64,000 nt of DNA from a virus (taxonomy: Duplodnaviria > Heunggongvirae > Uroviricota > Caudoviricetes): positions 1 to 64,000 of the IMG/VR virus record IMGVR_UViG_3300029156_000001; one strand, given 5' to 3'. This document shows, piece by piece, positions 5,900-17,585 of the stretch. The notes under the pieces were generated by a model. It had not been told where the DNA came from and searched no databases. It worked only from the letters and a program-made list of their open reading frames with translations. Both the position numbers and the translations under genes were made by a program. Within the stretch, counting starts at the first letter, position 1. Each line of letters begins with the position of its first letter.

Positions 5900-6215
5900 T
5901 CTGGAAACGCTTTCTGATATCGCCGCCGATACCCCTTAATCCTTTTTCAAGATCATCTGCAAGCTGATCCTTGTCCACACGATCGAGAACGTCTCTTGCT
6001 TCCTCCCCAACAGATTGACGAACCTTGTCTACCATTTCAACGGCTTGTTCTGCCGTATCATTAGCTTTTTCAAGGTTATCATTGAGGCGTTTTACTTGAA
6101 AACACGCGAGCAGTAGCACGGCTACGGCAGCGACAATTAGAATAACTCGGGATCTTTTCATTCGCTTTCGCTCATAGTATTTTGGTGAGGGCGGCGAGAC
6201 TCGAACTCGCAACAT
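5892..6215 (-). CDS. small signal-anchored membrane protein
   Basis: N-terminal basic stretch followed by single hydrophobic helix (VILIVAAVAVLLLACF). Confidence 0.35.
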   Translation of the reverse strand: MLRVRVSPPSPKYYERKRMKRSRVILIVAAVAVLLLACFQVKRLNDNLEKANDTAEQAVEMVDKVRQSVGEEARDVLDRVDKDQLADDLEKGLRGIGGDIRKRFQSE

Positions 6216-6259
6216 CTAGCTTCTAAGGCTAGCGACTCTTCCAATTGGCCTACGCCCCC
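6183..6259 (-). tRNA. tRNA, short variable arm, apparent anticodon UAG (Leu-type) with A73 and encoded CCA
   Basis: hand fold: acceptor GGGGGCG/CGCCCTC, T-arm GCGAG-TTCGAGT-CTCGC, anticodon arm CTAGC-CTTAGAA-GCTAG; body resembles Trp-type tRNA. Confidence 0.55.
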
Positions 6260-6272
6260 GTATTTTGTGTTT

Positions 6273-6350
6273 TGGTGAGGTAGGTGGGAGTCGAACCCAC
6301 AAACTTCTAGTTTTTGAGACTAGTGACTCTGCCAATTGGCCTACTACCTC
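6273..6350 (-). tRNA. tRNA, short variable arm, apparent anticodon CAA (Leu-type) with A73 and encoded CCA
   Basis: paralog of the 6183-6259 tRNA (same D-arm TAGGCCAATTGG); anticodon arm CTAGT-CTCAAAA-ACTAG; T-arm GTGGG-TTCGACT-CCCAC. Confidence 0.55.
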
Positions 6351-6360
6351 ATTTGGGAGT

Positions 6361-6912
6361 TTACTCCCAGATGTATCTTTCTCCGTTCCAGCGACGACGC
6401 TTGGATTGTTCTTCTGGAAATCTAAAAGTGCCGATCACTCCTGGGGTCATGAGATCGGGTTGAAAGTTTTTACCGTATTGTTCTCGAAGCTCGGCGGTGT
6501 CTACGAGTTTCAGTTGTGGTTCCTGCGTCTCGACACAGGGGTTCCCATCTAGATCGAGGGCCTTTCCCCAATCTTTTAGAGTTGGCTTTGGCCATTCCAT
6601 TTTGCCTGCCGGTGCGTTATAGATACGATGGATACTGGCATCGAACTTGAGTTCGGTCACGGGGATCGGATCGTCCTTTCGAAGAACCGTATCAGGAGCA
6701 ACGATTAGCCATACGCTAACCAAACCCATGTTAATTAGTTGTTCTTGGGTGTAGGTGTCCGAGGCTTGTGGCGGCCCCAGAAGCTTGCCGTCGAGCCATT
6801 GATACACATAGGCTTCGTCTTCGCCGGGTTGACTATGCCAGCTACGAACAATCGTCATTTCGAAACGCTCGCCATCAGGGTCATAACTATTACCACAGTA
6901 TCTAACTTGCAT
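6361..6912 (-). CDS. hypothetical protein
   Basis: 183 aa ORF, tightly packed with neighbours on same strand. Confidence 0.4.
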   Translation of the reverse strand: MQVRYCGNSYDPDGERFEMTIVRSWHSQPGEDEAYVYQWLDGKLLGPPQASDTYTQEQLINMGLVSVWLIVAPDTVLRKDDPIPVTELKFDASIHRIYNAPAGKMEWPKPTLKDWGKALDLDGNPCVETQEPQLKLVDTAELREQYGKNFQPDLMTPGVIGTFRFPEEQSKRRRWNGERYIWE

Positions 6913-7441
6913 CGTTCAAAATCCTAATTGCCTTCGCGGCGTGCCGCTCAGTTAAACCGTCTTTGAAACTTGTGTGAACAAAGTTTTGTCTCTGTGAAGG
7001 TAACATGTCCGAATCATCATCAAGGATAACGAATTCACGTTCGAGACGAGGAAACTCTGCTTCGTGTTCTTTTAGCCAAAGTGCAATCTCGTCTCCACGC
7101 TCAGGACGATGTGGCTTACCCCACGTATCGTTGACCTGTCCCTGGAAGCTTTCATGTAGGGTGCCTTGTTCGGCTTGCCACACTATACTCAAATCTTTGG
7201 TTTGAGAATGGATTGTAATGTCTCGCTCAGCGAGCCATTTTGTGAGTTTTTTGCGGCCACGACCATTGAACATTCGCCACGTTGACGATAACACCACGAT
7301 TGCATTAGTTTCTTGTACGATCCGTTGAAGACGGTCGCACATATCGGGACACAATGTTGCAACGCTGTCAGCGTGTGGACCCGTCCAGGTCTTCTGACAG
7401 TTGAGAACTCCGTCCACATCTAGGAAGATGATTTTGTGCAT
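6902..7441 (-). CDS. HAD-superfamily phosphatase (polynucleotide 3'-phosphatase-like)
   Basis: N-terminal motif I FLDVDGVL (DxDGT-type), later SSTW and DDD motifs typical of HAD/PNK phosphatase domain. Confidence 0.55.
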   Translation of the reverse strand: MHKIIFLDVDGVLNCQKTWTGPHADSVATLCPDMCDRLQRIVQETNAIVVLSSTWRMFNGRGRKKLTKWLAERDITIHSQTKDLSIVWQAEQGTLHESFQGQVNDTWGKPHRPERGDEIALWLKEHEAEFPRLEREFVILDDDSDMLPSQRQNFVHTSFKDGLTERHAAKAIRILNDAS

Positions 7442-7531
7442 TACCAGAGGAGATCTTCGGTCTGTTGCTCTGTAATCTTCATGGTGTCATTATACGCCCT
7501 AACGAGCGTAAGTCAAGCTCTTTTTAGTGAA

Positions 7532-7608
7532 TGGTCCGACTAGCAGGATTCGAACCTGCACTCGATGGGCTCTCGACCCACCTCCTCTGCCAATTGGGAT
7601 ATAGTCGG
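7532..7608 (-). tRNA. tRNA, C1-G72 acceptor, apparent anticodon GAG with C33 (identity uncertain)
   Basis: perfect 7-bp acceptor CCGACTA/TAGTCGG, T-arm GCAGG-TTCGAAT-CCTGC, encoded CCA; anticodon loop TCGAGAG is atypical. Confidence 0.5.
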
Positions 7609-7691
7609 ATGGTGGGCCTCCGAGGTAATGCTCCCCGTTCTTCTGGTTAAAAGCCAGTTGCTTCACTTTAAAAGCTTGAAGCCCTTTTGTT

Positions 7692-7768
7692 TGGTACGGG
7701 CAGAAGGATTTGAACCCTCGTAAATCGGTTTAGAAGACCGATGCATTAGTCCACTATGCTATGCCCGC
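7692..7768 (-). tRNA. tRNA-Arg (anticodon UCU)
   Basis: acceptor GCGGGCA/TGCCCGT, D-stem GCAT/ATGC, anticodon arm TCGGT-CTTCTAA-ACCGA, T-arm GAGGG-TTCAAAT-CCTTC, encoded CCA. Confidence 0.7.
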
Positions 7769-7795
7769 ATTCTTCGTTCTAACGAACGAAGTGAG

Positions 7796-7871
7796 TGGTC
7801 GGTCCCCTGGGGTACGATCCCAGATCTGACAGATTAAGAGTCTGCTATGTTGCCAATTACACCAAGGACCG
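7796..7871 (-). tRNA. tRNA, apparent anticodon CUU (Lys-type), atypical T-loop
   Basis: acceptor CGGTCCT/GGGACCG, D-stem GTGT/ACAT, anticodon arm GCAGA-CTCTTAA-TCTGT, T-arm CTGGG-ATCGTAC-CCCAG (non-canonical T-loop). Confidence 0.4.
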
Positions 7872-8251
7872 TTTTCTAGAAGTAGTCGTCGTAATCGATT
7901 GGCTCTTTTCGTTTCTCGGGGTGCTCGTCATAATACTTACCTAGATCGCGAGCCCATTCCTGATAAAATGAAAGAGGTAATTGTTTCTGTTCTTTGACAG
8001 GGCGTTCTTTACTTGTTTCAATGGCAACTGCGGCCCCCAGAAACGCTGCTATAAAAGTACCAATCATCTGGAATTTTTTGCTGATCTCTTGGAGATCGCA
8101 GAGCATTGCTGATCACAAAAATGTAGTTCGTCTTCGCAGTTGCAATGATAGGCCCATCCGAAGATGCCATCCCACCAAAATGGTTGACATCCATTCGCTT
8201 CTGCTAGTTTTTTGATTTCCCTATCGATTTCTTCGGGCATTTTGATTATGG

Positions 8252-8674
8252 TCATCTGATCGCCTCTGCAAATGCATTCAGGCCCTCTTGTGTGTCGATG
8301 TGGTAGCAATTAGGCGTACCGCCTTCGGGCCACCATTCATCCGGTGCGGGACAACCACAGTGACCCGCTACGCGAACTACTGTACCGTGCGTTTCATGAA
8401 GCTTAATGGCTTGTTCCATCGTAAGCGAAACACGGGCCGGTGCTTTCCAGGTGGCCACCCAATAGTACCACGCTCGCGTGAGCGTCCAGCCGCCCTGACA
8501 CTCTTTGGTTCCGTCAGGACCGGAACCAAGATAGCCCACAATGTTGGATCGCACCTCACCTTTGCTTCGTAAGCACTCGGGCCAAGGATCTCGGATAGGA
8601 ATACCGGCTTCAATCAATTCGTTGGTGCATTCAACATCAACGATTTCAGGTTCTTCACCAGCTAAATTCTTCAT
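8252..8674 (-). CDS. hypothetical protein (Cys/Trp-rich)
   Basis: 140 aa ORF upstream of tRNA-Ile; no recognisable motif. Confidence 0.35.
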   Translation of the reverse strand: MKNLAGEEPEIVDVECTNELIEAGIPIRDPWPECLRSKGEVRSNIVGYLGSGPDGTKECQGGWTLTRAWYYWVATWKAPARVSLTMEQAIKLHETHGTVVRVAGHCGCPAPDEWWPEGGTPNCYHIDTQEGLNAFAEAIR

Positions 8675-8682
8675 GGTGTATT

Positions 8683-8760
8683 TGGTCCGAGAGGGAGGAT
8701 TTGAACCTCCGCATCACGACTTATCAGGCCGTTGCCTTGACCAGACTTGGCTACTCTCGG
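8683..8760 (-). tRNA. tRNA-Ile (anticodon GAU)
   Basis: acceptor CCGAGAG/CTCTCGG, anticodon arm ACGGC-CTGATAA-GTCGT, T-arm GGAGG-TTCAAAT-CCTCC, encoded CCA. Confidence 0.6.
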
Positions 8761-8761
8761 T

Positions 8762-9034
8762 TTATAGCAGTCCACTAATGCGTGCTGCTTGTGCGGGCGT
8801 AAAAGGCCGCATGTTTTCGTAGTTGGAATTACCCGCGAGACGCTCGACCACTTCGACGCCATCGTACAGAGTGGCAAACCACAAGATATATCCCATAGGA
8901 GCAAATTGCTCTTGAAGTTTACGAACTTCTTGACGGGCCTCGTCAATGTTATTGACTTCAATATGAATATCTGAATCGCGGCTCGTAAAGGTGCCGTTGT
9001 GGATGCCCCACGCAAGTCTTAGTGTCTTATTCAT
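8762..9034 (-). CDS. hypothetical protein
   Basis: 90 aa ORF between tRNA genes. Confidence 0.3.
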   Translation of the reverse strand: MNKTLRLAWGIHNGTFTSRDSDIHIEVNNIDEARQEVRKLQEQFAPMGYILWFATLYDGVEVVERLAGNSNYENMRPFTPAQAARISGLL

Positions 9035-9375
9035 TTTACTACCAGTCCATAGCGTGATTTAATAGTAGCAGATTCTAGAACTACAACACGATCTTCTGGT
9101 TCAATGTAGACGCACAATAGGTCGCAAGTTGTATTATCGAAAGGAATTCGTTTTGTTCCTGATCTGTTCGGACGATGAGACTTAAGGGTAACAATCCATC
9201 CTGTGTCTTCTGGAGTTTTTGTTCTAGTTGACTTAACTTGAACTCGTTGCAGTCTATCTTTGTAGACAACTAAGTCAAAAGGAGCTTTGCCAGATGTGTC
9301 CATAAAGACAAAGTATCCCTGAGCGGCGAAATGTGCCGCACTTTTAAGCTCACCAATAGTTCCTAAATCAGACAT
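9031..9375 (-). CDS. hypothetical protein
   Basis: 114 aa ORF; start overlaps stop of upstream gene (coupled). Confidence 0.35.
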   Translation of the reverse strand: MSDLGTIGELKSAAHFAAQGYFVFMDTSGKAPFDLVVYKDRLQRVQVKSTRTKTPEDTGWIVTLKSHRPNRSGTKRIPFDNTTCDLLCVYIEPEDRVVVLESATIKSRYGLVVK

Positions 9376-9382
9376 ATATTTT

Positions 9383-9469
9383 TGGCGGAAGGTAGAGAGA
9401 ATCGAACCCCGGGCCTTTTACAACCCCCCTGGTATTCAACACCAGTTTGTCACCTTGACGGTACCTTCC
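9383..9469 (-). tRNA. tRNA-Ser (anticodon UGA), type II
   Basis: 87 nt, acceptor GGAAGGT/ACCTTCC, anticodon arm CTGGT-GTTGAAT-ACCAG, long variable arm, T-arm GGGG-TTCGATT-CTCT, encoded CCA. Confidence 0.6.
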
Positions 9470-9944
9470 ATTTTTATTCGTGACTCAATCGACGCACGTT
9501 ACCTAGTGCCTGATGCATGGCACGAGTATAACCTTCCCAAAAGCGATAATCACTCAGGCGAGCACGAAAAGCGTCACAGTCCTTATCGCCAATTTCAGTG
9601 AGTTCCTTTTCAGCGGAAGCGGCACGCTCTTGGGCCGACTTGAGTTCTTCCTCAAGCTCCGCAACGATGCCCTTGTACTCGAACTTACTGAGCACGACGC
9701 TTTAGTCCCCGCTTTGACCAAGGGGCTCGTTGACTCTTACGTTGCTCACGCCGACGGGCTTTGATAAAGCTCTCTTCGTTGGCCTCTTGGGTCGGACGCG
9801 GCATATAGCCACGGAGCCAACGAAGGATGGTTTCGTTCACAAGCTCACCATTACGTCGAGCTTCCATCAGAGACGCGATGGCGTCCTTGGGCGTCACTTT
9901 GCCCTTTTTGACCCGTTCGCGTAGCGAACCTTCTTTCAACAGAC

Positions 9945-10421
9945 TCATTCTAAGTCCTCCGGAAAATGTTTTTTGGTTATAACCTCCCCGATACCGAGAT
10001 CGAGGATGTCTCGCAGTAGTCGTTGTACGTCACCATCATACGGTGCTTTGAGCCGTACGTCAAGCCAAGAGTAGAATTTTTCGTCTTCGACTATCTCGAT
10101 CTCGGTATCGGGGAGATCTTCAAAGTAATCTGCGTCCGTTCCGGCCGCAGGCCGGATCCGAATGATGATGTCACTCTTGCGAGAAGTAGAAGGGCGTGGG
10201 CCTTTTGTTGTTTTGGTCTCACGGATATTCGCCTTAGGCGAAGTTCCGTCATTTTGGAAATTTTGCGGCCCACCCCTTAGTCTACTCTGCAACGCCTCCT
10301 CAGGCGACAGCCCGAGGCTGATCTCTTCTTTTGTACGTCGGAAACGCTTTTCACCAGTCACAGCCTTGTACGACTCAATGTCGTGGATCTGGGCCGCGTG
10401 TTCGGGAGTGATTTCATTCAT
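9945..10421 (-). CDS. hypothetical protein
   Basis: 158 aa ORF. Confidence 0.35.
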   Translation of the reverse strand: MNEITPEHAAQIHDIESYKAVTGEKRFRRTKEEISLGLSPEEALQSRLRGGPQNFQNDGTSPKANIRETKTTKGPRPSTSRKSDIIIRIRPAAGTDADYFEDLPDTEIEIVEDEKFYSWLDVRLKAPYDGDVQRLLRDILDLGIGEVITKKHFPEDLE

Positions 10422-10464
10422 GACACCCTAGTATAGCACGCAAAGCGTGCTGGTCAAGTTATTT

Positions 10465-10552
10465 TGGAAGTAAGTGTGGGATTCGAACCCACGGGGCTGT
10501 TACACCCGGCAGCTTAGCAAGCTGCTACAATAAGCCACTCTGTCAACTTACC
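10465..10552 (-). tRNA. tRNA-Ser (anticodon GCU), type II
   Basis: 88 nt, anticodon arm GCAGC-TTGCTAA-GCTGC, long variable arm, T-arm GTGGG-TTCGAAT-CCCAC, encoded CCA. Confidence 0.6.
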
Positions 10553-10559
10553 ATTATTT

Positions 10560-10634
10560 TGGAGACCGGGGTGCGAATCGAACGCACGTATGAAGGGTTG
10601 CAGCCAACAGCCTAAGCCACTCAGCCACCCGGCC
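10560..10634 (-). tRNA. tRNA, possibly Cys (anticodon GCA?) with U73; anticodon stem poorly paired
   Basis: acceptor GGCCGGG/CCCGGTC (G2-U71), T-arm GTGCG-TTCGATT-CGCAC, U73 discriminator, candidate loop CTGCAAC. Confidence 0.35.
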
Positions 10635-10910
10635 TAATTTACGGCATTGAAATGTGTTCTGTTGATAGATAGATGGTTCCGTCACGACTCCATGTACAAT
10701 ACCACCCTAAAGCAGCAAGGTGTTCTTCGATCAACTCTTTTCTGGTATTGCCATATATGTTTACGTGTGCATATAATTTACCTTGACGTAAACGTTTGGC
10801 AATAGTACGCAAAGCACGTCGAACTTCCTTTTGGAGTGTTTTTTGCTTGCGTTTTTCATACATGGGCAGATACTTGTCGGTAAACTGTCGTGTTGTCGGA
10901 ATTTTTACCA

Positions 10911-11477
10911 TCATCCAATCTCCAAATCTAATTTTTCGAAACCACGATCTTCTACCAACTCCAAGTCCGTTCCGGACTTGAGCATACGATCATACAATAC
11001 AATCGAGACAGCTACGGCGAGATTGGTGCAATGTCGCGACGGGATTTGAATAAAGTGATGACAGTGTTGAAGCGTCACACGCTCTAGGCCACCGTCTTCG
11101 GGACCGAAGACGTAGATGGCATTTTTAGGATGTTCAAACGTCGTCAAGGGCTGGGTGCCCGGCGTGATCTCTACGGCTACCGGAACGGCGTCTTGAAATT
11201 GATCAAAGGGTCTGTCATACTGCCTAAGCTCAACGTCCGCATAGCCCTTCATGCGTTCCTCGCGGGGCAGACGATGCTTGCGATTCATGGAGACGCGGTT
11301 GCCCGTGTACCACAGTTGCCCCATTCCGAAGCACGAACAAGACCGTAGGACAGCACCGACATTACGAGCGTGCTTCGGATTAGTTAGGACGACGGCAGGA
11401 GGTACGCCGAACTTCTTTTTGCCCGGCTCAAAGGACTCCATGTCGCGAGTGAGTTTATCACGTAGTTTGTTGGTCAT
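10911..11477 (-). CDS. SpoU/TrmH-family RNA 2'-O-methyltransferase
   Basis: NVGAVLRSCSCFG motif (SPOUT class N-x-GA-x-x-R-x-x-x-x-FG), 188 aa. Confidence 0.65.
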   Translation of the reverse strand: MTNKLRDKLTRDMESFEPGKKKFGVPPAVVLTNPKHARNVGAVLRSCSCFGMGQLWYTGNRVSMNRKHRLPREERMKGYADVELRQYDRPFDQFQDAVPVAVEITPGTQPLTTFEHPKNAIYVFGPEDGGLERVTLQHCHHFIQIPSRHCTNLAVAVSIVLYDRMLKSGTDLELVEDRGFEKLDLEIG

Positions 11478-11759
11478 CCCACAACTCTTTCAGAAATCTG
11501 GGTGGAAAAGCTTTCTTTTTACGTCTACACCAGTCAAATACAAAATCCCATTGACGTTGCGAAGGAAATGCTGGTTTGCTCGCCAAGTAAAACCAATTGA
11601 ACTTATCGATGCCTGGATCACCCTTCAAAGTCATGAAACCTCGACGCTCTACCTCTGCCTCGCCCTTTTGGCCAACGAGATCAAAGGCTAGATCACAGTG
11701 GCCCCAGGCATGACAAGCGTGAAACGTGCCATCGCGGGCAAGGTATCCGAGTTCAGGTT

Positions 11760-12182
11760 TCATGACACATCCTTTATTCGTCGTTGTTTGTCACAATGTT
11801 TACACTCATCATTAAGACCAAAGGGTTTACTGGCGTTTTTAGAAAAGGTATTGTGAGGTAGGTAAATACGACATCTGTAGCATCGAATATTACCATCTAT
11901 GTCAGTAATTCTCCGTCCTCGCCTACCGGCTTCACTATTGCATGTCTTGTGTGAAAGTGCAACGTTATTTACATCAAAGAAAAGCACCTGAGGGTTGTTA
12001 CTGTCCAGCCAACTAACCTTGTGGTCAATTGACATATCTTGTGGCCTTTCGATAATTTGACCACATCTATAGCATGTTGTCAATCTTAATCGCTGAGCAA
12101 AACTATACAGTAAAGCTTTTACTAGCCTGTTGGTAGCGGTACCTATAGGCATGCCCAACTGCTGTCTTTTCTTTTTGCTCAT
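11760..12182 (-). CDS. HNH endonuclease (start trimmed to internal Met to avoid overlap)
   Basis: CYRCG...IDHKVSWLDSNN...N...HKTCN HNH motif; ORF track extends to 12437 but overlaps the next gene. Confidence 0.55.
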   Translation of the reverse strand: MSKKKRQQLGMPIGTATNRLVKALLYSFAQRLRLTTCYRCGQIIERPQDMSIDHKVSWLDSNNPQVLFFDVNNVALSHKTCNSEAGRRGRRITDIDGNIRCYRCRIYLPHNTFSKNASKPFGLNDECKHCDKQRRIKDVS

Positions 12183-12262
12183 GTTGGTTACGGGGCTGAG
12201 AATTGCACTCAGTTCCCTTGATTCAAAGTCAAGGATGTTTCTGTTACACCACCCCGTAGTGA

Positions 12263-12595
12263 TTACTTTTTGCGGCGGGCCGCAGATTCGCGACGACGAC
12301 GACGCTCTCTCTTTTTCTTCGCGGAGTATTTGGCCAAGCCACCAATTACACCAACGAAAACGCATGCCGCCAGGAATAGTACCATGATGGCGGCGACAAA
12401 GGCGAGCGGTCCCCAAAAGGGACAAGTCACCCACCACCAGGACCAGCCAGCGACGACGCCGACTTCCCCAAGTTTGAGTCCGACGAACAGCAGGCCAAGC
12501 AGGCCAAGAATAGGAAATGCGGGGCGAGCGGTTTCGGTAGACATGATTTTCTTCCGTTTGTTCGGCTTAGGAGCCGAGGTCATAGTAAGTTTCAT
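12263..12595 (-). CDS. small membrane protein (two TM helices, basic C-terminus)
   Basis: hydrophobic segments GLLGLLFVGL and FVAAIMVLFLAACVFVGVIGGL followed by KKKRERRRRRE. Confidence 0.4.
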   Translation of the reverse strand: MKLTMTSAPKPNKRKKIMSTETARPAFPILGLLGLLFVGLKLGEVGVVAGWSWWWVTCPFWGPLAFVAAIMVLFLAACVFVGVIGGLAKYSAKKKRERRRRRESAARRKK

Positions 12596-12648
12596 GCCCT
12601 ATTATACTCGCTCTGCTCGTGAAGTCAAACTTTAACTTCGAAATGTTC

Positions 12649-12722
12649 TGGCGACCCCAGGGAGTATCGATCTCCCGCTACCACCGTGACAGGGTGGCGT
12701 TCTACCATTAAACTATGGAGTC
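12649..12722 (-). tRNA. tRNA-Asp (anticodon GUC)
   Basis: acceptor GACTCCA/TGGGGTC, D-stem GTTT/GAAC, anticodon arm CCACC-CTGTCAC-GGTGG, T-arm GGGAG-ATCGATA-CTCCC, encoded CCA; 5' 15 nt overlap the last codons of pyrB. Confidence 0.65.
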
Positions 12723-13523
12723 AAGTGATGTTGCTAGTAAGGTTTTGCGTATTTGAAGACCGTATGCGACTTGCTTAAAATACACAGCCCTTTTGTCTTG
12801 TTCAATTGCGTTCGGCAATTCTTGTGTGCGTGGTAGTGGATGCATGATGATGGCATCTTCCTTAATATCAGGAAGCATTTTCTCCTCCATCCCATACAAG
12901 ACACCTTCTCTTTTGAGAGAGCGTTCCGTTTGTGGTCGTGTCATGTAAATGACATCGGCTTTGCCAATTTCATTGATATCTGGAAAATCAAAGATGTCCT
13001 GCTTGACAACCTCGACATCAAATTGATTTAGAACAGCAATGAATGAATTGATTGTACGGGCGTTTTCCAGGTCTCCCCAGATCAGAACCCTGTTGCCGTC
13101 GATCCTGCCCTTTTCTCGCCAGATAGTATAGGCGTCCGTTAGAGCCTGCGTTGGGTGACTACCGATGCCATCACCGGCATTGATGATAGGAACGGCTGCT
13201 ACTTCGGCAGCTTTTTGTGCGGCCCCCATTTCTGGATGCCTTAGCACAATAATATCGGCGTAGTTGCCCACGACCTTAATAGTATCTTCTAAAGATTCGC
13301 CTTTGGTAGTCGAGCTAGACGCAGTAGCATTCTCTACGGTAATGACGCCCCCGCCTAACCTAAGTGCGGCCGACTCAAACGACAATCGTGTTCTGGTGGA
13401 TGGCTCGTAAAAGAGAGTGGCTAAAACAAACGGATCACACTCGGCCACTTCGGCAGCAGACGTATGGAAGATCCTTTCTAGCGTATCTCTAGAAAACTGA
13501 TCGGCTTTTAGAATGTGCTTCAT
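12708..13523 (-). CDS. pyrB: aspartate carbamoyltransferase catalytic chain
   Basis: STRTR carbamoyl-phosphate binding motif, HPTQALTD, C-terminal HPLPR (ATCase rather than OTCase); ATG at 13521-13523 preferred over the TTG listed at 13541. Confidence 0.75.
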   Translation of the reverse strand: MKHILKADQFSRDTLERIFHTSAAEVAECDPFVLATLFYEPSTRTRLSFESAALRLGGGVITVENATASSSTTKGESLEDTIKVVGNYADIIVLRHPEMGAAQKAAEVAAVPIINAGDGIGSHPTQALTDAYTIWREKGRIDGNRVLIWGDLENARTINSFIAVLNQFDVEVVKQDIFDFPDINEIGKADVIYMTRPQTERSLKREGVLYGMEEKMLPDIKEDAIIMHPLPRTQELPNAIEQDKRAVYFKQVAYGLQIRKTLLATSLDSIV

Positions 13524-13527
13524 GTTT

Positions 13528-13601
13528 TGGCAGGGGATCAACGAATCGAACGCTGGTCTTCGGGTTTGGAATCCGATATGTTACCACTACACCAATCCCC
13601 T
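13528..13601 (-). tRNA. tRNA-Trp (anticodon CCA)
   Basis: A1-U72 and G73 as in E. coli tRNA-Trp, acceptor AGGGGAT/ATCCCCT, anticodon loop TTCCAAA, T-arm CAGCG-TTCGATT-CGTTG, encoded CCA. Confidence 0.65.
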
Positions 13602-13735
13602 ATATTTCATAATGACACTTAAGATACCAAAGTGTAGTTTATCTGGCACTATGATTGGTGCCGCCCCCAGGTAACGCTCCTGGTCCCCCTGGGTTTCAAC
13701 CAGATGTGCAAGACTTCTACACCAAGGCGGCGATT

Positions 13736-14869
13736 TTACGGCAGGTCGATAGGATCTCGAAAGACGATACCACCTACGAAAATTCGTGGAATCTGATCGT
13801 CCGTCCGATCAAAGAATCGAACGGTCAATATTTTTCCAATGTACTGTTGTCGTTCTTCGTACTGCCGACGACGTTCCGGCATGGAACCCTTCCAAAGACA
13901 CTCAAAGGTTGCATCCGTCACGTCATTGCGACAGACAAAGACGGCATGACCCTTCATTTTACCTATACCATCGATCACGTCTACCACTTCGAACTCGGCA
14001 TCTTGAAACTCTTTCACTTTCAAGAGTTCAGCAGAACGATATCCCCAAATGTATGTGCCGTTATGACTTCGTAGAATAGCACCCTCATATCCCCGCGTTA
14101 CAAACGTGCCATATGCTGACCACATATCAGTTTCGTTTGCAACCAGGACGGTTGGCACCCTTTCCACATTCTTACTTGGCTGGAAATGAGGTTTGAGATA
14201 AAGAGCGTCGGAGCGAGCCTTCCATGAGAGAGTGTCGTCCCCTAGTACCACCGGCATATCGTAAACATGAAAGATGAGTCGGGCACTTTCGGGCTTATAC
14301 GATTTAGTGCCGGGGACCGCCGATTTTGCCCAAGACGTAATTCGCTGACATGATTCTCCGTGAGTGTATAGTTCGCCATCTAGAGTGATACCTTCGGGCA
14401 GCCAGTTGGCAAGCTGTTCTTGTACCAGGGGGATCGTCCACGGCTTCCCTTGGCGGGAGGTCAGGGCGATACTACCATCGGCGGCCCTCTGAGCAAGGCA
14501 ACGTACCCCATCTAGCTTAGGCTGAATGTCTACGCCGCCTTCATAACTAAGATTTTTCCTTTTCGAGCCCTTGAAAGAATGGGCCAACATAGGCAAGGGT
14601 AGTTGCTCTTGAGCATCCTCTGGAGTAAGCGAGTATTTCCGCTCTAGTTTATATGTGTGTAGCGACTGTGCCTCCAGTACGGCTTGCTCGTCGGGAGTAG
14701 TAGCATTCTTACGTCCCGCGTTCTTTGCCTCGGCTGTCTTACGACTGATTTGAAGCTTACCCCCGACGGTGCCATATTCCGTCAGGATATCTGCACCGTC
14801 GGTGAAGACTCGCCACTGACGGAGATCGCCGCCTTTAGCTTTGTGAAACAGTGTAGGTAGTTTTTGCAT
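13736..14869 (-). CDS. ATP-dependent DNA ligase (T7-type)
   Basis: motif I KLDGVRCLA (K-x-D-G-x-R), motif IV EGAILR, motif V LLKVKEF; 377 aa. Confidence 0.8.
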   Translation of the reverse strand: MQKLPTLFHKAKGGDLRQWRVFTDGADILTEYGTVGGKLQISRKTAEAKNAGRKNATTPDEQAVLEAQSLHTYKLERKYSLTPEDAQEQLPLPMLAHSFKGSKRKNLSYEGGVDIQPKLDGVRCLAQRAADGSIALTSRQGKPWTIPLVQEQLANWLPEGITLDGELYTHGESCQRITSWAKSAVPGTKSYKPESARLIFHVYDMPVVLGDDTLSWKARSDALYLKPHFQPSKNVERVPTVLVANETDMWSAYGTFVTRGYEGAILRSHNGTYIWGYRSAELLKVKEFQDAEFEVVDVIDGIGKMKGHAVFVCRNDVTDATFECLWKGSMPERRRQYEERQQYIGKILTVRFFDRTDDQIPRIFVGGIVFRDPIDLP

Positions 14870-15134
14870 TGGTGATTTTCAGCCAGCGGATCAAATGTTT
14901 GACAGTTGTGGGACCAATGAAACAGTGTCCTTCGCCAAAGGTGTCATGCACAAGCCTGTGACATGGTTTACAAAGGCCAATTGTGATGGCACCCTTACGT
15001 CTGGAAAGAAGGTGCTCGTTGAACCTAGGATCCTTACGTGGCACCATATGATGCCGCGTAAAATCGTCCTTTTTGCACGGTCCACAAGCTCGACAAGTGG
15101 GAGGATAGAGCCATTTGCGTTTTTTAGCCATCAA
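14835..15134 (-). CDS. small HNH endonuclease
   Basis: CxxCxxC ... HHMVPR ... CKPCHRLVH zinc-ribbon HNH signature. Confidence 0.6.
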   Translation of the reverse strand: MMAKKRKWLYPPTCRACGPCKKDDFTRHHMVPRKDPRFNEHLLSRRKGAITIGLCKPCHRLVHDTFGEGHCFIGPTTVKHLIRWLKITNAKTTYTVSQS

Positions 15135-15382
15135 TCAACCCTACTGAGAATGTAGTCTTCTTCGAGAGCGTCCCATAGCCATTGTACTGCTAGTGACTTA
15201 GATGAAAAACCAGGACTGAGTTCTTCATAAAAGCGTTTATACTGGACGTTTTTGATGCCGGTCCACCACAATCCCTTATGTTTAAAAACGGCGTACTGGC
15301 CATTGTCAAAGGTTGATATCTTCATAGTGTTTGGTAGGCCCGGAAGGAATTGCACCCTCATCTGATGGTTCGTAGCCACCAA
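15131..15382 (-). CDS. hypothetical protein
   Basis: 83 aa ORF translationally coupled to downstream HNH gene. Confidence 0.3.
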   Translation of the reverse strand: MVATNHQMRVQFLPGLPNTMKISTFDNGQYAVFKHKGLWWTGIKNVQYKRFYEELSPGFSSKSLAVQWLWDALEEDYILSRVD

Positions 15383-15696
15383 TGCTGTCTGTTACACCAC
15401 AGGCCCATTTGTTTCTGTTATTCTACACGCCGCAGGCGTGTTGGGGTGAAAGTTCGGTTCTGCCCCGAATCCTCTCGGGTCACAGCCGAGTAGGCTACTA
15501 TTACAACACAATCACCGTTCGCTCCGCTCACGGATTTAGATGTACCGCGAGCAGTCTTTCGAGCACCACAGACAAAACCTCTTCTGCAAGTAGATTCGTG
15601 TTGTCATGGTGTTCGTCTTACTAATCACCTTCCAGGCGGTCATATCATGAATGCCGAAGAAGCATATCACTTGACGCCACCACGGGCCGGTAAACA

Positions 15697-16365
15697 TCAG
15701 AATGAGTAGCCCAGAAGGACGAAGAGTGTACCGCCATTGAGGCTGGGGCTGTTCACGAAGATATCAGAGTCACTGGCTCCGAAGTGCTGCCGGTACAGAC
15801 CCGCGAGGCTCCAGTTGTCGGACATGAACCATCTGCTGCCGACTTGAGCGTACGGAGCATAGCCGGTGTCACGGTCACTGATAACAGACGTGTACGTGGG
15901 GTCGATGTCGGTATCGATACTGAAAGCCGAGACGCCACCACTAGCAAAAACTTGCCAACGATCAGTCAGCATCCAGTTTTTACGAAGGCCAAAGTAGAGT
16001 TCACGGACCGTCGAGGTTGTGTCACTCACGGGGCGGTTTTCGTAAAAGCCGTCGCTGGAAATGTTCTGGCCCAGCGAAAAGCCAACTTCCGGACCGAAGC
16101 CGTCCTTGCCGCAGAAATCGGCCTGGACGGTAAAAAGCTGTTGCTCGTCGGTTTGCTCCCAATCATTCTGGGCATCGTAGTTTCGCCAACCGTATCCGAT
16201 ATCGACGGTCGGGGCGAGTTGTCCTTGCGGGCCTTGACAGGCGGCGAGGAGGACTAGGGTTGCCGTAGCAAGTAGTAGATTCTTCATGCGTGCATTATAC
16301 TGCACGCATGGAGGGTTGTCAACCTTCTTCTGCTTCAATTTGTTGCAGGGCGTGTGCTTTGGCAA
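15697..16365 (-). CDS. outer-membrane beta-barrel protein with lipoprotein-type signal (Lom/Ail/OmpX-like)
   Basis: signal peptide with LAAC lipobox, alternating amphipathic beta-strand pattern, aromatic-rich, C-terminal ...GYSF (terminal Phe typical of OM beta-barrels). Confidence 0.5.
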   Translation of the reverse strand: MPKHTPCNKLKQKKVDNPPCVQYNARMKNLLLATATLVLLAACQGPQGQLAPTVDIGYGWRNYDAQNDWEQTDEQQLFTVQADFCGKDGFGPEVGFSLGQNISSDGFYENRPVSDTTSTVRELYFGLRKNWMLTDRWQVFASGGVSAFSIDTDIDPTYTSVISDRDTGYAPYAQVGSRWFMSDNWSLAGLYRQHFGASDSDIFVNSPSLNGGTLFVLLGYSF

Positions 16366-16497
16366 TGCCTACCTCAGAGGCAAACTTGAAAGCGAAAATT
16401 AGGACTGTGCCTGTAATTACCGCAATTAGGACTTTTGAAGTGTTTTCGTTGATTTCGATTTTCATTAATCTCGTGCCTCGACTAGAGTGGTCGGGAA

Positions 16498-16570
16498 CCC
16501 GAGAATCGCACTCGGAGCTTCGGCTTATGAGGCCGACGTGTTACTGTTACACCAATTCCCACTCGTTTTA
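16498..16570 (-). tRNA. tRNA-Met (anticodon CAU), elongator or Ile2-type
   Basis: D-stem GTGT/ACAC, anticodon arm TCGGC-CTCATAA-GCCGA, T-arm CCGAG-TGCGATT-CTCGG, encoded CCA. Confidence 0.55.
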
Positions 16571-16786
16571 CTCATGATAGTAAAATTGTGCATTACGACT
16601 AAGATCCTGCATCGCCTGTCTTAGAACGAGAGTGTGTTCATCAGGACCGCGATCCCAAATAAAACATTCCATCGCGGCGTGCCGACAGGCATTAGGCATG
16701 TAGATGCTACCATTCCGAAGAGGGGTTTCAAAATCAGGAATGATAGCTACAACAGCATTAAAGAGATCTTCTTTAGAATATTGCAT
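16568..16786 (-). CDS. hypothetical protein (start trimmed to internal Met)
   Basis: ORF track start 16822 would overlap the upstream tRNA; internal Met at MQYSKEDLF avoids the overlap. Confidence 0.3.
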   Translation of the reverse strand: MQYSKEDLFNAVVAIIPDFETPLRNGSIYMPNACRHAAMECFIWDRGPDEHTLVLRQAMQDLSRNAQFYYHE

Positions 16787-16802
16787 AGTGTTTGGTAGGG
16801 TA

Positions 16803-16881
16803 GGTGGGAGTCGAACCCACAAACGACGCAGATTTTAAGTCTACCGGCGATGCCAATTAGCCTACTACCCCGCTTGTTTCT
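16803..16881 (-). tRNA. tRNA, short variable arm, apparent anticodon UAA (Leu-type) with A73 and encoded CCA
   Basis: paralog of the 6183/6273 tRNAs: acceptor GGGGTAG/CTACCCT, D-arm TAGGCTAATTGG, anticodon arm GTAGA-CTTAAAA-TCTGC, T-arm GTGGG-TTCGACT-CCCAC. Confidence 0.5.
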
Positions 16882-17326
16882 TTTTCAAGGCAATTGTGCC
16901 TTCGCGTACCCTAACACGATACCCATTATCGGTCCAGAAAGCACATTCGTCAACAGCGTCTTGGCGTCTGCCAATTGTGACCTGTAAGGCTTGCCAAGGC
17001 TCGTTGTCGGCATTGCGGCCCAGAATGATCCAGACGGGTTCGCTAGTCTCCACGGACTTCCCCTTCTATACGATCAAAGTCTTGCATGGCCGCATGAGCT
17101 TCGTAGTAGCCGTTATTGGTGCCGGGGCTGGTACTGGACTTTTTGATGGCCAATACAAGGTTGCTTAGGCCACGAAATACCCGAATCCATTGATCTCGTG
17201 AGAGCGAGAAGGGCTGTTCGGGTGTACTCGCAGGACCAGATTTGATCAGCCAGTCTTGGTTTTCGTCAGTCATACCCTACTATACCCCAGGAAGTGATGA
17301 TTGTCAAGCACTTCCTGGGGGTTGTT

Positions 17327-17404: not shown

Positions 17405-17412
17405 ATTGTGAT

Positions 17413-17501: not shown

Positions 17502-17504
17502 ATA

Positions 17505-17579: not shown

Positions 17580-17585
17580 ATGTTC

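What the first reader, a model, noticed from the sequence alone, without database searches (positions are those of the whole stretch)
6183..16881. Paralogous Trp-like tRNAs with short variable arms carrying Leu-type anticodons (UAG, CAA, UAA, plus GAG)
Three paralogs (6183-6259, 6273-6350, 16803-16881) share an E. coli tRNA-Trp-like body (D-arm TAGGCYAATTGG) and are 74-76 nt with short variable arms. Their 7-nt anticodon loops read CUUAGAA, CUCAAAA and CUUAAAA, giving anticodons UAG, CAA and UAA. All have A73 (the Leu discriminator) rather than the G73 of Trp. A fourth short-variable-arm tRNA (7532-7608) has loop UCGAGAG (GAG). Bacterial tRNA-Leu is normally type II with a long variable arm. 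These genes are therefore either an anticodon-switched family with unusual identity or a systematic misfold on my part.
Basis: seen in the sequence. Interest (0 to 1): 0.6.

Follow-up and report, generated by a model that had tools for sequence, protein, structure and literature searches.

The report
Phage leucine tRNAs lacking long arm
Four genes in this phage's tRNA cluster encode leucine tRNAs without the long extra arm that bacterial leucine tRNAs normally carry; this compact form is common in phages and actinobacteria, so it is real but not a new kind of tRNA.

Summary
ARAGORN and the Rfam tRNA covariance model both place UAG, CAA, GAG and UAA at positions 34-36 of four minus-strand tRNAs. 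They are 77-79 nt with encoded CCA, have 5-7 nt variable loops and carry A73.

The "Trp-like body" is only a shallow resemblance. All four have the tRNA-Leu architecture and the E. coli LeuRS identity set: a 3-bp D-stem with unpaired 13:22, a 9-nt D-loop AAUUGGNAN, U8:A14, A15:U48, G18G19, A20a and A73. They lack G73, the 13-22 pair and the CCA anticodon of tRNA-Trp.

They belong to a large, strongly covarying family:
- at least 119 viral contigs;
- KVP40-like and T5-like phages, including an E. coli K-12 phage;
- bacterial tRNA arrays;
- the chromosomal tRNA-Leu(UAA) of many Actinomycetota.

A class I tRNA-Leu is published for Streptomyces coelicolor. In one conserved gene, Leu codons align with Leu in distant homologues, so there is no sign of recoding.

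The most likely reading is genuine leucine tRNAs charged by the host LeuRS, which does not need the long arm. Charging, and any benefit of losing the arm, are inferred. Verdict: new members of a known kind.

The parts
6183..6259 (-). Class I-shaped tRNA-Leu(UAG), 77 nt with encoded CCA. Loop CUUAGAA (A37), variable loop AUGUU, A73, D-arm GGCCAAUUGGAAGAGUC with C13.A22.
   Evidence: ARAGORN; Rfam 55.9 bits; parsed. A syntenic ortholog with compensatory stem changes sits next to the RNA ligase gene in relative L256.
6273..6350 (-). Class I-shaped tRNA-Leu(CAA), 78 nt. Loop CUCAAAA, variable loop AAGUUU, A73.
   Evidence: ARAGORN; Rfam 53.6 bits; parsed. It is 93% identical over 42 nt to the 77-nt tRNA-Leu(CAA) of a KVP40-like Vibrio phage.
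7532..7608 (-). Class I-shaped tRNA-Leu(GAG), 77 nt. Loop UCGAGAG with the unusual C33, variable loop CGAGU, A73. Same D-arm architecture (UCCCAAUUGGCAGAGGA) but a separate lineage, about 0.5 identical to the other three.
   Evidence: ARAGORN; Rfam 49.8 bits with alignment. The same UCGAGAG loop occurs in viral locus L057.
16793..16871 (-). Class I-shaped tRNA-Leu(UAA), 79 nt. Loop CUUAAAA, 7-nt variable loop GUCGUUU, G1.U72, A73. Paralog of the CAA gene.
   Evidence: ARAGORN; Rfam 48.6 bits with alignment. It shares a 26-nt identical stretch with the CAA gene.
6183..21320 (-). The phage tRNA cluster that holds the four genes. It has about 25 tRNA genes on one strand, interspersed with small ORFs and HNH endonuclease genes, and no canonical long-arm tRNA-Leu.
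883..2148 (-). CCA-adding/repair enzyme of the E. coli type with an HD domain (context: tRNA maturation and repair).
   Evidence: Pfam PolyA_pol, PolyA_pol_RNAbd and HD; NCBIfam PRK10885, 379 bits.
4751..5899 (-). RNA ligase (context: tRNA repair), immediately downstream of the UAG and CAA genes.
   Evidence: Pfam RNA_ligase and the PHA02142 OB domain. The same neighbourhood occurs in relatives L255, L256 and L258.
6902..7441 (-). HAD domain protein of the 'Swiss Army Knife' RNA-repair type, lying between the CAA and GAG genes.
   Evidence: Pfam HAD_SAK_2, E = 1e-28.
10911..11477 (-). SpoU/SPOUT 2'-O-methyltransferase-like protein inside the tRNA cluster. Its target is unknown. It gives a weak full-length match to the TrmL profile and a partial match to TrmJ.
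   Evidence: Pfam SpoU_methylase, E = 4e-21; NCBIfam and PDB matches far below cut-offs.

Best explanation
The four genes encode genuine leucine tRNAs (UAG, CAA, GAG, UAA) that have the compact class I shape instead of the long variable arm. Together they can read all six Leu codons.

Proposed mechanism:
1. They are transcribed as part of the phage's one-strand tRNA cluster and already carry CCA.
2. The host leucyl-tRNA synthetase charges them. In bacteria this enzyme reads A73 and the shape of the tRNA core (U8:A14, A15:U48, G18G19, A20a, and the T/D-loop contacts). It does not read the anticodon or the long arm.
3. They supply leucine decoding for phage mRNAs. Leu is 8.3% of codons; CUA is 17% and UUG 16% of Leu codons.

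They sit in a genome region that also carries tRNA repair enzymes, so the supply probably matters when host tRNAs are scarce or cut.

Shown here: the fold, the anticodons, the identity nucleotides, family-wide conservation and covariation, and the Leu meaning of the codons.

Inferred: charging by LeuRS, expression, and any advantage of lacking the arm.
For: **Fold and anticodons.** ARAGORN and the Rfam covariance model agree on both.

**Identity features.** All four have A73, U8, A14, A15, U48, G18G19, A20a, a canonical UUCGA T-loop, a 3-bp D-stem with unpaired 13:22, and a 17-nt D-arm. These are the E. coli tRNA-Leu determinants. The long arm and anticodon are dispensable there, and variants lacking both arms are still charged (review PMC9976931).

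**Comparison set not selected by my pattern.** I examined 83 short-arm Leu-anticodon tRNAs that were merely neighbours in the fetched viral loci.

| Feature | Short-arm Leu (83) | tRNA-Trp, same loci |
|---|---|---|
| A73 | 98% | 0% |
| 13:22 unpaired | 99% | 2% |
| A15 | 100% | - |
| U48 | 98% | - |
| A20a | 100% | - |

- The long-arm tRNA-Leu of the same loci show the same values as the short-arm set.

**Specificity of the signature.** The full signature occurs in 158 of 200 short-arm Leu tRNAs. In every other short-arm (class I) isotype it occurs in at most 2 tRNAs.

**Covariation.** In 98 sequences, 98.7% of cells are paired, all 20 pairs show double-sided changes, and the score is 1.04 against 0.24 for shuffles and about 0.15 for slid controls.

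**Interchangeability.** Relatives of this phage carry either form for the same anticodon:
- UAA is long-arm in L003 and short-arm in L257 and in the window.
- CAA is long-arm in L258 and short-arm in the window.
- The L256 ortholog of the UAG gene has compensatory changes in three stems.

**Arm loss follows synthetase tolerance.** In the same viral loci, tRNA-Ser (98 of 100) and tRNA-Tyr (28 of 29) keep the long arm. Their synthetases need it; LeuRS does not.

**Codon meaning.** In the CCA-enzyme gene, sites encoded by CUA, CUC, CUG and UUG align with Leu in 71%, 59%, 72% and 56% of residues of 38 distant homologues. The background Leu frequency is 10%.

**Occurrence elsewhere.**
- Many Actinomycetota have this kind of tRNA as the single chromosomal tRNA-Leu(UAA), with a nearly identical D-arm.
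- It is also found in phages of E. coli K-12, Salmonella, Vibrio, Proteus and Xanthomonas.
- S. coelicolor LeuRS charges its short-arm tRNA-Leu(CAA) (PMC6614811).
Against: - No charging or expression data exist for these genes.
- E. coli LeuRS failed to charge the short-arm tRNA-Leu(CAA) of S. coelicolor (PMC6614811). That tRNA is reported to have C48 rather than U48 and an 18-nt D-arm. The failure still shows that a proteobacterial LeuRS does not accept every short-arm tRNA-Leu.
- The host is unknown. An OMP beta-barrel protein and an E. coli-type CCA enzyme point only to a Gram-negative host.
- The GAG tRNA has C33 instead of the near-universal U33.
- The UAG tRNA has A37 where bacterial CUN-reading tRNA-Leu has G37 (m1G).
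- Whole-body similarity of the UAG and CAA genes is marginally higher to E. coli tRNA-Trp than to tRNA-Leu.
- The codon-meaning test rests on one gene (7-15 sites per codon, only one UUA site). It cannot exclude low-level misincorporation.
Confidence: 0.8

Rival explanations
1. The compact shape is itself an adaptation. Phage tRNA-Leu lost the long variable arm so that host defence nucleases or toxins that recognise or cut the variable arm of class II tRNAs cannot disable it. The tRNAs would still work as ordinary leucine tRNAs. This adds to the best explanation rather than replacing it.
For: [quoted passage not shown]
- The genes lie among tRNA-repair genes: CCA enzyme, RNA ligase, HAD_SAK_2, a kinase-like AAA_33 protein and RlaP.
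- The anticodon loops also differ from host-type loops (A37/A38 in the UAG tRNA, C33 in the GAG tRNA). Others attribute such changes to nuclease evasion (Sf14 paper PMC12482277).
- The short-arm form is frequent in phages of hosts whose own tRNA-Leu is long-armed, such as E. coli K-12.
Against: - No nuclease that targets the tRNA-Leu variable arm was identified here or in the papers read.
- Actinomycetota use the same form as a housekeeping chromosomal tRNA. The shape therefore needs no conflict to exist.
- The arm could be lost neutrally, because LeuRS does not need it.
- Relatives of this phage mix both forms.
Confidence: 0.2
2. One reading: the genes descend from a tRNA-Trp-like class I tRNA, acquired Leu anticodons, and carry a non-leucine or ambiguous identity, so that Leu codons are recoded or mistranslated.
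For: - The UAG and CAA genes are slightly more similar overall to E. coli tRNA-Trp (0.74, 0.67) than to tRNA-Leu (0.70, 0.64).
- A BLAST of the two genes hit Salmonella and Pseudomonas-phage tRNA-Trp at about 75% identity.
- E. coli tRNA-Trp also has the AAUUGG D-loop and U48.
Against: - TrpRS needs G73 and the CCA anticodon, and both are absent.
- The 13-22 pair and 16-nt D-arm of tRNA-Trp are replaced by the Leu-type unpaired 13:22 and 17-nt D-arm.
- There is no G3:U70 (Ala), no G-1 (His) and no long arm (Ser).
- The other A73-using synthetases read anticodon bases that do not fit (established identity rules, PMC9976931).
- Leu codons align with Leu in homologues.
- The UAA and GAG genes are not closest to Trp.
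Confidence: 0.04
3. The molecules are not used in translation. They act as uncharged decoys or sponges for host tRNA-targeting nucleases, or as other tRNA-like regulators.
For: - Their neighbours are RNA-repair genes.
- The window also holds several clearly aberrant tRNA-like genes: a 25-nt anticodon loop at 21232-21320, and non-canonical T-loops.
- The GAG gene has C33.
Against: - A decoy would not need A73, encoded CCA, a 7-nt anticodon loop and the full LeuRS core set. These are conserved in 93-100% of family members.
- A decoy would not need a complementary set of four anticodons covering all Leu codons.
- The same tRNA form is the sole chromosomal tRNA-Leu(UAA) in many Actinomycetota.
Confidence: 0.07
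4. Artefact: mispredicted folds or decaying pseudogenes.
For: RNAfold's minimum-energy structures for the CAA and UAA genes are not cloverleaves.
Against: - Covariance-model scores are 20-27 bits above the gathering score.
- Covariation across the family is strong.
- A syntenic ortholog carries compensatory changes.
- The acceptor stems are intact and CCA is present.
Confidence: 0.02

Closest known systems
Type I tRNA-Leu(CAA) of Streptomyces coelicolor (Nucleic Acids Res 2019, PMC6614811)
   Same: It is a bacterial tRNA with a Leu anticodon and a 5-nt variable loop, and a bacterial LeuRS charges it with leucine. Streptomyces loci from the genome scan show the D-arm GCCCAAUUGGCAG(C/U)AGGC, close to the window's GGCCAAUUGGCAGAGUC.
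   Different: - It is chromosomal, not phage-borne.
- It has an 18-nt D-arm and is reported to have C48.
- A73 is not an identity element for its LeuRS.
- E. coli LeuRS does not charge it.
- The window's genes have U48 and a 17-nt D-arm, and they come as a set of four isoacceptors.
Chromosomal short-arm tRNA-Leu(UAA) of Actinomycetota (Nocardia, Mycobacterium, Gordonia, Rhodococcus, Arthrobacter, Rothia), found here by the genome scan
   Same: It has the same architecture: U8 A9, D-arm GCCCAAUUGGCAGAGGC with C13.A22, a 5-nt variable loop ending in U48, and A73. Body identity to the window's CAA and UAA genes reaches 0.71.
   Different: - It is a single-copy housekeeping gene in high-GC Gram-positive genomes.
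- CCA is often not encoded.
- The window's phage probably infects a Gram-negative host.
Short-arm tRNA-Leu genes annotated in GenBank phages: KVP40-like and T5-like Vibrio phages, T5-like Escherichia and Salmonella phages (e.g. IrisVonRoten/Bas32), Proteus phage Stubb, Xanthomonas phage X1
   Same: They are 77-nt tRNA-Leu genes (UAA, CAA, UAG or CAG) in phage tRNA clusters, with A73, A15:U48 and the AAUUGGNAN D-loop. The window's CAA gene is 93% identical over 42 nt to the KVP40-like one.
   Different: - They come from other phage lineages.
- Many belong to a subtype with U8 G9 and G13.A22, closer to E. coli tRNA-Leu.
- The records call them tRNA-Leu without comment on the shape.
- T5 itself has a long-arm tRNA-Leu(UAG).
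Canonical class II tRNA-Leu of E. coli (leuT, leuW, leuZ, leuX, leuU)
   Same: A73, U8:A14, A15:U48, G18G19, A20a, a 17-nt D-arm with a 3-bp stem and unpaired 13:22, and Leu anticodons.
   Different: - They have a 13-15-nt variable arm, against 5-7 nt here.
- They have G9 and G13.A22, against A9 and C13.A22 (U13.C22 in the UAA gene).
- The CUN readers have G37, against A37 here.
Engineered minimal E. coli tRNA-Leu lacking the variable and anticodon arms (Larkin et al. 2002, as summarised in PMC9976931)
   Same: They show that bacterial LeuRS charges and edits tRNA-Leu without the long arm, provided A73 and the D/T-loop tertiary contacts are kept. This is exactly the set conserved here.
   Different: They are laboratory constructs, not natural genes, and they have no decoding function.
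Animal mitochondrial tRNA-Leu (class I shape)
   Same: It is a leucine tRNA without a long arm, and A73 and A14 are its identity elements.
   Different: It comes from organellar, reduced tRNAs with a dedicated synthetase, and it has no sequence relationship to these genes.

Membership tests
tRNA (Rfam RF00005) | Score above the curated gathering threshold, with a full-length cloverleaf alignment and a 7-nt anticodon loop | tested here: met
   The four genes score 55.9, 53.6, 49.8 and 48.6 bits against a threshold of 29, over model positions 1-71.
Bacterial tRNA-Leu (E. coli LeuRS identity set) | Discriminator A73 | tested here: met
   All four genes have A73. In the family, 98% of the 83 pattern-independent tRNAs have it.
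Bacterial tRNA-Leu (E. coli LeuRS identity set) | Core tertiary elements: U8:A14, A15:U48 Levitt pair, G18G19 and A20a in a 9-nt D-loop, and a T-loop able to form U54:A58 and G19:C56 | tested here: met
   All are present by sequence in the four genes. In the pattern-independent family set they are 96-100% conserved. The determinants are listed in PMC9976931.
Bacterial tRNA-Leu (E. coli LeuRS identity set) | 3-bp D-stem with a non-Watson-Crick 13:22 | tested here: met
   The four genes have C.A, C.A, C.A and U.C. The covariance model flags 13:22 as non-standard in all four.
Bacterial tRNA-Leu (E. coli LeuRS identity set) | Long (class II) variable arm. It is characteristic of the family but is not an identity element in E. 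coli. | tested here: not met
   The variable loops are 5, 6, 5 and 7 nt.
Bacterial tRNA-Leu (E. coli LeuRS identity set) | Leucylation by LeuRS | not testable with these tools
   This needs an aminoacylation assay. Indirect support comes from Leu codons aligning with Leu in homologues.
Type I (short-arm) tRNA-Leu of bacteria and phages | Leu anticodon, a variable loop of 8 nt or less, and the Leu-type D-arm and discriminator | tested here: met
   The family alignment is gapless with the UAG and GAG genes included, and it covaries strongly.
tRNA-Trp | G73 discriminator and CCA anticodon (TrpRS determinants) | tested here: not met
   The genes have A73 and anticodons UAG, CAA, UAA and GAG. The phage has its own tRNA-Trp with G73 at 13528-13601.
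tRNA-Trp | 4-bp D-stem with a paired 13-22 and a 16-nt D-arm | tested here: not met
   E. coli trpT has GUUC...GAGC with C13-G22. Among phage tRNA-Trp, 98% pair 13:22, against 2% for short-arm Leu.
allo-tRNA (8/4 or 9/3 acceptor/T-stem tRNAs, Mukai 2017) | Acceptor stem of 8-9 bp with a T-stem of 3-4 bp, a long variable arm, and a long D-stem with a tetraloop | tested here: not met
   The four genes have the standard 7/5 arrangement, a short variable loop and a 9-nt D-loop.

The most novel reading that the evidence does not exclude
In phage tRNA clusters the class I/class II shape rule may be generally loosened as part of the arms race over tRNAs. Under this reading, tRNA-Leu sheds its long arm because LeuRS tolerates the loss, and so escapes host factors that recognise class II variable arms. 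Some tRNA-Asn, tRNA-Lys and tRNA-Pro gain long arms, for example the 89-nt tRNA with a GUU anticodon at 17413-17501. The short-arm tRNA-Leu would then be a counter-defence device. It would also be a natural test of whether proteobacterial LeuRS really charges only long-arm tRNA-Leu, as reported for E. coli LeuRS on the Streptomyces substrate.
Probability: 0.15. Interest if true: 0.7.

Novelty: new member of a known kind. Interest (0 to 1): 0.35.

Why it matters
For this window, the result means the four genes can be annotated as tRNA-Leu. There is no case for codon reassignment.

More broadly, textbooks and the one paper found on the subject treat short-arm tRNA-Leu as an oddity of mitochondria and of Streptomyces coelicolor. 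The scans here suggest a much wider spread:
- It is the usual tRNA-Leu(UAA) across Actinomycetota.
- It is common in phage tRNA clusters and bacterial tRNA arrays.
- It occurs in phages of E. coli K-12, whose own tRNA-Leu are all long-armed and whose LeuRS was reported to charge only long-arm substrates.

That makes two questions directly testable with available strains. Does proteobacterial LeuRS charge these tRNAs? Does losing the arm protect them from tRNA-cutting defence systems?

Tried and rejected
- **Megablast against GenBank phages.** The 17-kb cluster gave no match. The phage is uncultured. Only distant protein similarity (about 35% for rIIA) to roseophages and T4-like phages was found.
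- **Whole-body identity to E. coli tRNAs.** It proved non-diagnostic. The nearest isotype for the 200 viral short-arm Leu tRNAs scatters over Leu 71, Thr 33, Phe 19, Trp 19 and others. I relied on architecture and identity positions instead.
- **RNAfold minimum-energy folds.** They do not give cloverleaves for the CAA and UAA genes. I rejected this as evidence because the covariance model and covariation are decisive.
- **ARAGORN's 89-nt 'tRNA-Leu(CAG)' at 21232-21320.** I considered it as the phage's canonical long-arm tRNA-Leu and rejected it. Rfam aligns it as a class I body with a 25-nt anticodon-loop insert, and it has no CCA.
- **Encoding-contig look-up for P0006.** This is the Hydrogenophaga-labelled MAG protein. 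The look-up found nothing, so host inference stays weak.
- **Literature searches.** Five searches for phage tRNA-Leu with a short variable arm found no paper describing it. The only hit for 'type I tRNALeu' is the Streptomyces paper. The paper on cyanobacterial tRNA arrays does not mention the variable arm.
- **Amber recoding.** I considered it because of the CUA tRNA. TAG ends 25 of 110 ORFs, and treating it as sense gives no special gain.
- **SpoU methylase as a TrmL orthologue.** Such an enzyme would act on tRNA-Leu CAA/UAA. The score is far below the cut-off, so no assignment was made.

Full report
**1. What is there**

ARAGORN finds 25 tRNA genes in the window, 24 of them on the minus strand between 6183 and 21320. 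Rfam adds one more at 18959-19029.

Four carry leucine anticodons and are short:

| Coordinates (minus strand) | Anticodon | Length |
|---|---|---|
| 6183-6259 | UAG | 77 nt |
| 6273-6350 | CAA | 78 nt |
| 7532-7608 | GAG | 77 nt |
| 16793-16871 | UAA | 79 nt |

The Rfam tRNA covariance model scores them 55.9, 53.6, 49.8 and 48.6 bits against a threshold of 29. It aligns the loops CUUAGAA, CUCAAAA, UCGAGAG and CUUAAAA with UAG, CAA, GAG and UAA at positions 34-36.

All four have A73, an encoded CCA and variable loops of 5-7 nt.

The UAG, CAA and UAA genes are paralogs. They share 0.67-0.78 body identity, and CAA and UAA share an identical 26-nt stretch. The GAG gene has the same architecture but is only about 0.5 identical to them.

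There is no ordinary long-arm tRNA-Leu in the window. ARAGORN's 89-nt 'Leu-CAG' at 21232-21320 is a class I body with a 25-nt insert in the anticodon loop and no CCA.

**2. Context**

The window comes from an uncultured large phage:
- It has no megablast hit among GenBank phages.
- Its rIIA-like protein is about 35% identical to those of roseophages and T4-like phages.
- An identical CCA-enzyme sequence sits on a 168,763-bp contig.

The tRNA cluster is embedded in tRNA maturation and repair genes:
- an E. coli-type CCA-adding/repair enzyme
- an AAA_33 kinase-like protein
- an RNA ligase
- a HAD_SAK_2 protein
- a SpoU-type methyltransferase
- RlaP
- HNH endonucleases

An OMP beta-barrel protein and the CCA enzyme type point to a Gram-negative host. 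This is a hint only.

**3. Leu-like or Trp-like?**

I fetched E. coli K-12 tRNAs of all 20 isotypes. By crude identity, leaving out the anticodon and variable region, the results are:

| Window gene | Identity to E. coli tRNA-Trp | Identity to E. coli tRNA-Leu(UAG) |
|---|---|---|
| UAG | 0.74 | 0.70 |
| CAA | 0.67 | 0.64 |

- The UAA and GAG genes are not closest to Trp.

E. coli tRNA-Trp and tRNA-Leu share the AAUUGGUAGA D-loop and U48. They differ as follows:

| Feature | tRNA-Trp | tRNA-Leu |
|---|---|---|
| D-arm length | 16 nt | 17 nt |
| Positions 13 and 22 | C13-G22, paired | G13.A22, unpaired |
| Discriminator | G73 | A73 |

All four window genes have the Leu form: a 17-nt D-arm, three D-stem pairs, an unpaired 13:22 (C.A three times, U.C once), A14, A15, G18G19, A20a, U48 and A73. 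The covariance model flags 13:22 as non-standard in each.

These are the published determinants for E. coli LeuRS. The same review states that neither the anticodon nor the long arm is needed, and that variants lacking both arms are still charged if A73 and the D/T-loop contacts are kept (PMC9976931).

**4. The family**

BLAST of the two adjacent genes against GenBank phages hit 77-nt genes annotated tRNA-Leu in KVP40-like and T5-like Vibrio phages, and genes annotated tRNA-Leu in Lactobacillus and Gordonia phages.

The pattern comprised the AAUUGG D-loop at Leu spacing, an NAR anticodon, a 4-7 nt variable loop and the T-loop.

ARAGORN on all loci held at that point (these 119 plus the window and five loci fetched earlier) gave 200 short-arm and 38 long-arm tRNAs with Leu anticodons.

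My pattern fixed part of the D-loop and A37, so I separated out the 83 short-arm Leu tRNAs that do not match it and were found only as neighbours. Their values are:

| Feature | 83 pattern-independent short-arm Leu | tRNA-Trp, same loci |
|---|---|---|
| A73 | 98% | 0% |
| 13:22 unpaired | 99% | 2% |
| A14 | 96% | - |
| A15 | 100% | - |
| U48 | 98% | - |
| GG in the D-loop | 100% | - |
| A20a | 100% | - |

- The long-arm tRNA-Leu of the same loci match the short-arm values.

The full signature occurs in 158 of 200 short-arm Leu tRNAs and in at most 2 members of any other class I isotype.

A gapless alignment of 98 distinct members, including the window's UAG and GAG genes, shows strong covariation:
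- 98.7% of cells are paired.
- All 20 pairs show double-sided changes.
- The covariation score is 1.04, against 0.24 for shuffles and about 0.15 for slid controls.

In several tRNA-rich viral loci, three or four short-arm Leu genes are present and no long-arm one.

In the same loci, tRNA-Ser (98 of 100) and tRNA-Tyr (28 of 29) keep their long arms. This fits the fact that their synthetases use the arm and LeuRS does not.

**5. Relatives of this phage**

Loci around CCA-enzyme homologues of 59-77% identity carry both forms interchangeably:
- L256 has a syntenic short-arm tRNA-Leu(UAG) next to the RNA ligase gene. It has compensatory changes in the acceptor, anticodon and T stems, and G37 instead of A37.
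- L255 and L257 have short-arm UAG and UAA genes.
- L003 has a long-arm UAA gene beside a short-arm UAG gene.
- L258 has a long-arm CAA gene.

This pattern is what functional equivalence predicts.

**6. Cells**

About three quarters of the 80 titles shown are Actinomycetota. These include Nocardia, Mycobacterium, Gordonia, Rhodococcus, Arthrobacter/Pseudarthrobacter, Rothia and Streptomyces.

In 91 loci the short-arm gene is the only tRNA within 8 kb. It is an ordinary chromosomal gene, usually tRNA-Leu(UAA), or CAA in Streptomyces. Its D-arm GCCCAAUUGGCAGAGGC is almost the same as the window's GGCCAAUUGGCAGAGUC.

A dozen loci are tRNA arrays. One example is Cylindrospermum, with 26 tRNAs and five short-arm Leu genes.

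The only paper I found on the subject shows that S. coelicolor LeuRS charges its short-arm tRNA-Leu(CAA). It treats this as exceptional. It also reports that E. coli LeuRS does not charge that substrate (PMC6614811).

Against that, T5-like phages of E. coli K-12 and Salmonella carry the short-arm form. There were 426 matching phage records, including 112 Escherichia and 215 Salmonella phage records. IrisVonRoten/Bas32 has a 77-nt tRNA-Leu(UAA) with the full signature. T5 itself has a long-arm tRNA-Leu(UAG).

**7. What the codons mean**

Crude ORF calling gives Leu at 8.3% of codons. The shares are CUU 0.24, CUC 0.20, CUA 0.17, CUG 0.16, UUG 0.16 and UUA 0.07. The four anticodons cover all six codons.

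In the CCA-enzyme gene, sites encoded by CUA, CUC, CUG, CUU and UUG align with Leu in 71, 59, 72, 39 and 56% of the residues of 38 distant homologues. Most of the rest are other hydrophobic residues. The background Leu frequency is 10%.

This is one gene with few sites and only one UUA site. It gives no hint of reassignment.

**8. Explanation and rivals**

The best-supported reading is that these are genuine leucine tRNAs in class I shape. The host LeuRS would charge them through A73 and the tRNA core, and they would serve phage translation. I put this at about 0.8.

Charging, expression and any benefit of the shape are inferred, not shown.

The main caveats are:
- the E. coli LeuRS result on the Streptomyces substrate
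- C33 in the GAG tRNA
- A37 in the UAG tRNA
- the unknown host

Rival readings:
- **Counter-defence.** Losing the arm might protect the tRNA from defence nucleases that cut variable arms. There is a precedent for tRNA-Tyr with retron-Eco7 and Septu (PMC13096335), and the genomic context fits. However, no such nuclease is known for tRNA-Leu, and Actinomycetota use the same shape as a housekeeping tRNA. I give this about 0.2, as an addition to the main reading.
- **Trp-derived, non-Leu identity.** Contradicted by the identity positions and the codon test (0.04).
- **Uncharged decoy.** Hard to square with conserved A73, CCA, the LeuRS core set and a complementary anticodon set (0.07).
- **Artefact.** Excluded (0.02).

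**9. Verdict**

The 'unusual identity' reading is not supported.

The genes are new members of a known, though little discussed, kind of tRNA. GenBank records for many phages already annotate them as tRNA-Leu without comment on their shape.

The wider pattern seems not to be described in the literature I could search. That pattern covers phage clusters, tRNA arrays, the whole of Actinomycetota, and phages of hosts that have only long-arm tRNA-Leu. It is worth a short note and a charging experiment.

Noticed in passing
window 17413-17501 (-), next to 17505-17579 (-); also L038 1556, L067 2611, L107 9718, L003 6769, L256 6074, L257 3645: An 89-nt tRNA has a long class II-type variable arm (CGGGAGUAAUCCCCACC) but an Asn anticodon (GUU) and an Asn-type acceptor (U1-A72, G73). 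It lies directly beside a normal 75-nt tRNA-Asn. Similar long-arm tRNAs with Asn, Lys (UUU/CUU), Pro, Gln, Thr and Trp anticodons recur in other viral loci and in three relatives of this phage. The class I/II rule is therefore broken in the opposite direction too.
   Followed up: partly
window 20945-21020 (-): A tRNA with the amber-suppressor anticodon CUA (ARAGORN calls it 'Pyl') has discriminator U73 and scores 61.6 bits in Rfam. ORF statistics give no sign that TAG is read as sense: TAG ends 25 of 110 ORFs.
   Followed up: partly
window 21232-21320 (-): A tRNA-like gene has normal acceptor, D and T arms but 25 nt in place of the 7-nt anticodon loop. The insert contains the palindrome AGACUGGCCAGUCU. 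There is no CCA. It may be a small intron or a non-decoding tRNA-like RNA. ARAGORN mislabels it tRNA-Leu(CAG).
   Followed up: partly
window 18959-19029 (-): This is an extra tRNA-Thr(UGU) with discriminator U73 and the aberrant T-loop GGCGGUA. Rfam finds it (43.9 bits) but ARAGORN misses it.
   Followed up: partly
window tRNAs at 7796, 12185, 12649, 13656, 15332, 16488, 17413, 17963, 20334 (-); L255 1648 and 3513: About ten tRNAs of the cluster have non-canonical elbows. Their T-loops are UGCAAUU, UGCGAUU, AUCGAUA, AUCGUUA or AGCGUUA instead of UUCRANY. Several have D-loops without GG (GUGUAACAG...). The pairing of D-loop ACAG with T-loop UGCAAUU recurs in a relative, so it looks like a conserved variant of the D/T-loop contact.
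   Followed up: no
window 7532-7608 (-); L057 264; L168 (Cylindrospermum tRNA array): The tRNA-Leu(GAG) has C33 (loop UCGAGAG) instead of the near-universal U33. The identical loop occurs in an unrelated viral contig. C33 also occurs in the GAG tRNA of a cyanobacterial tRNA array (CCGAGGA). It therefore seems to be a recurrent feature rather than a lesion.
   Followed up: partly
about 20 viral loci, e.g. L046 11033, L104 929, L117 7477: These loci carry 90-96-nt tRNAs with anticodon UAU (AUA codon). They have a conserved 24-nt variable arm (UUAGCGCCAGAUUAGCGUUCUUGA) and a short stem-tetraloop D-arm. They look like the allo-tRNA(UAU) described by Mukai et al. 2017.
   Followed up: partly
genome loci L135-L254 (e.g. 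L138 Mycobacterium, L144 Nocardia, L140 Paenarthrobacter, L169 Rothia): The chromosomal single-copy tRNA-Leu(UAA) of many Actinomycetota is short-armed. The one paper found treats this form as a peculiarity of Streptomyces coelicolor tRNA-Leu(CAA).
   Followed up: partly
window 10911-11477 (-), 12708-13541 (-), 15697-16365 (-): Protein genes inside the tRNA cluster include a SpoU/SPOUT 2'-O-methyltransferase-like protein, an aspartate/ornithine carbamoyltransferase-like protein, and an outer-membrane beta-barrel domain protein. The methyltransferase gives a weak full-length match to the TrmL profile, and a homologue lies in relative L256. The beta-barrel protein suggests a Gram-negative host.
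   Followed up: partly
L260 689-765 (Xanthomonas phage X1): A 77-nt tRNA has the His anticodon GUG and C73 but a Leu-type D-arm (UG UCGGAAUUGGUAGACGA) and variable loop AGUUU. It sits right after a short-arm tRNA-Leu(CAG) and may be an isotype switch from a Leu body.
   Followed up: no
window 36000-44000: This stretch has higher G+C (0.55-0.58, against about 0.49 elsewhere) and positive GC skew. Long ORFs overlap on both strands at 35368-36486.
   Followed up: no
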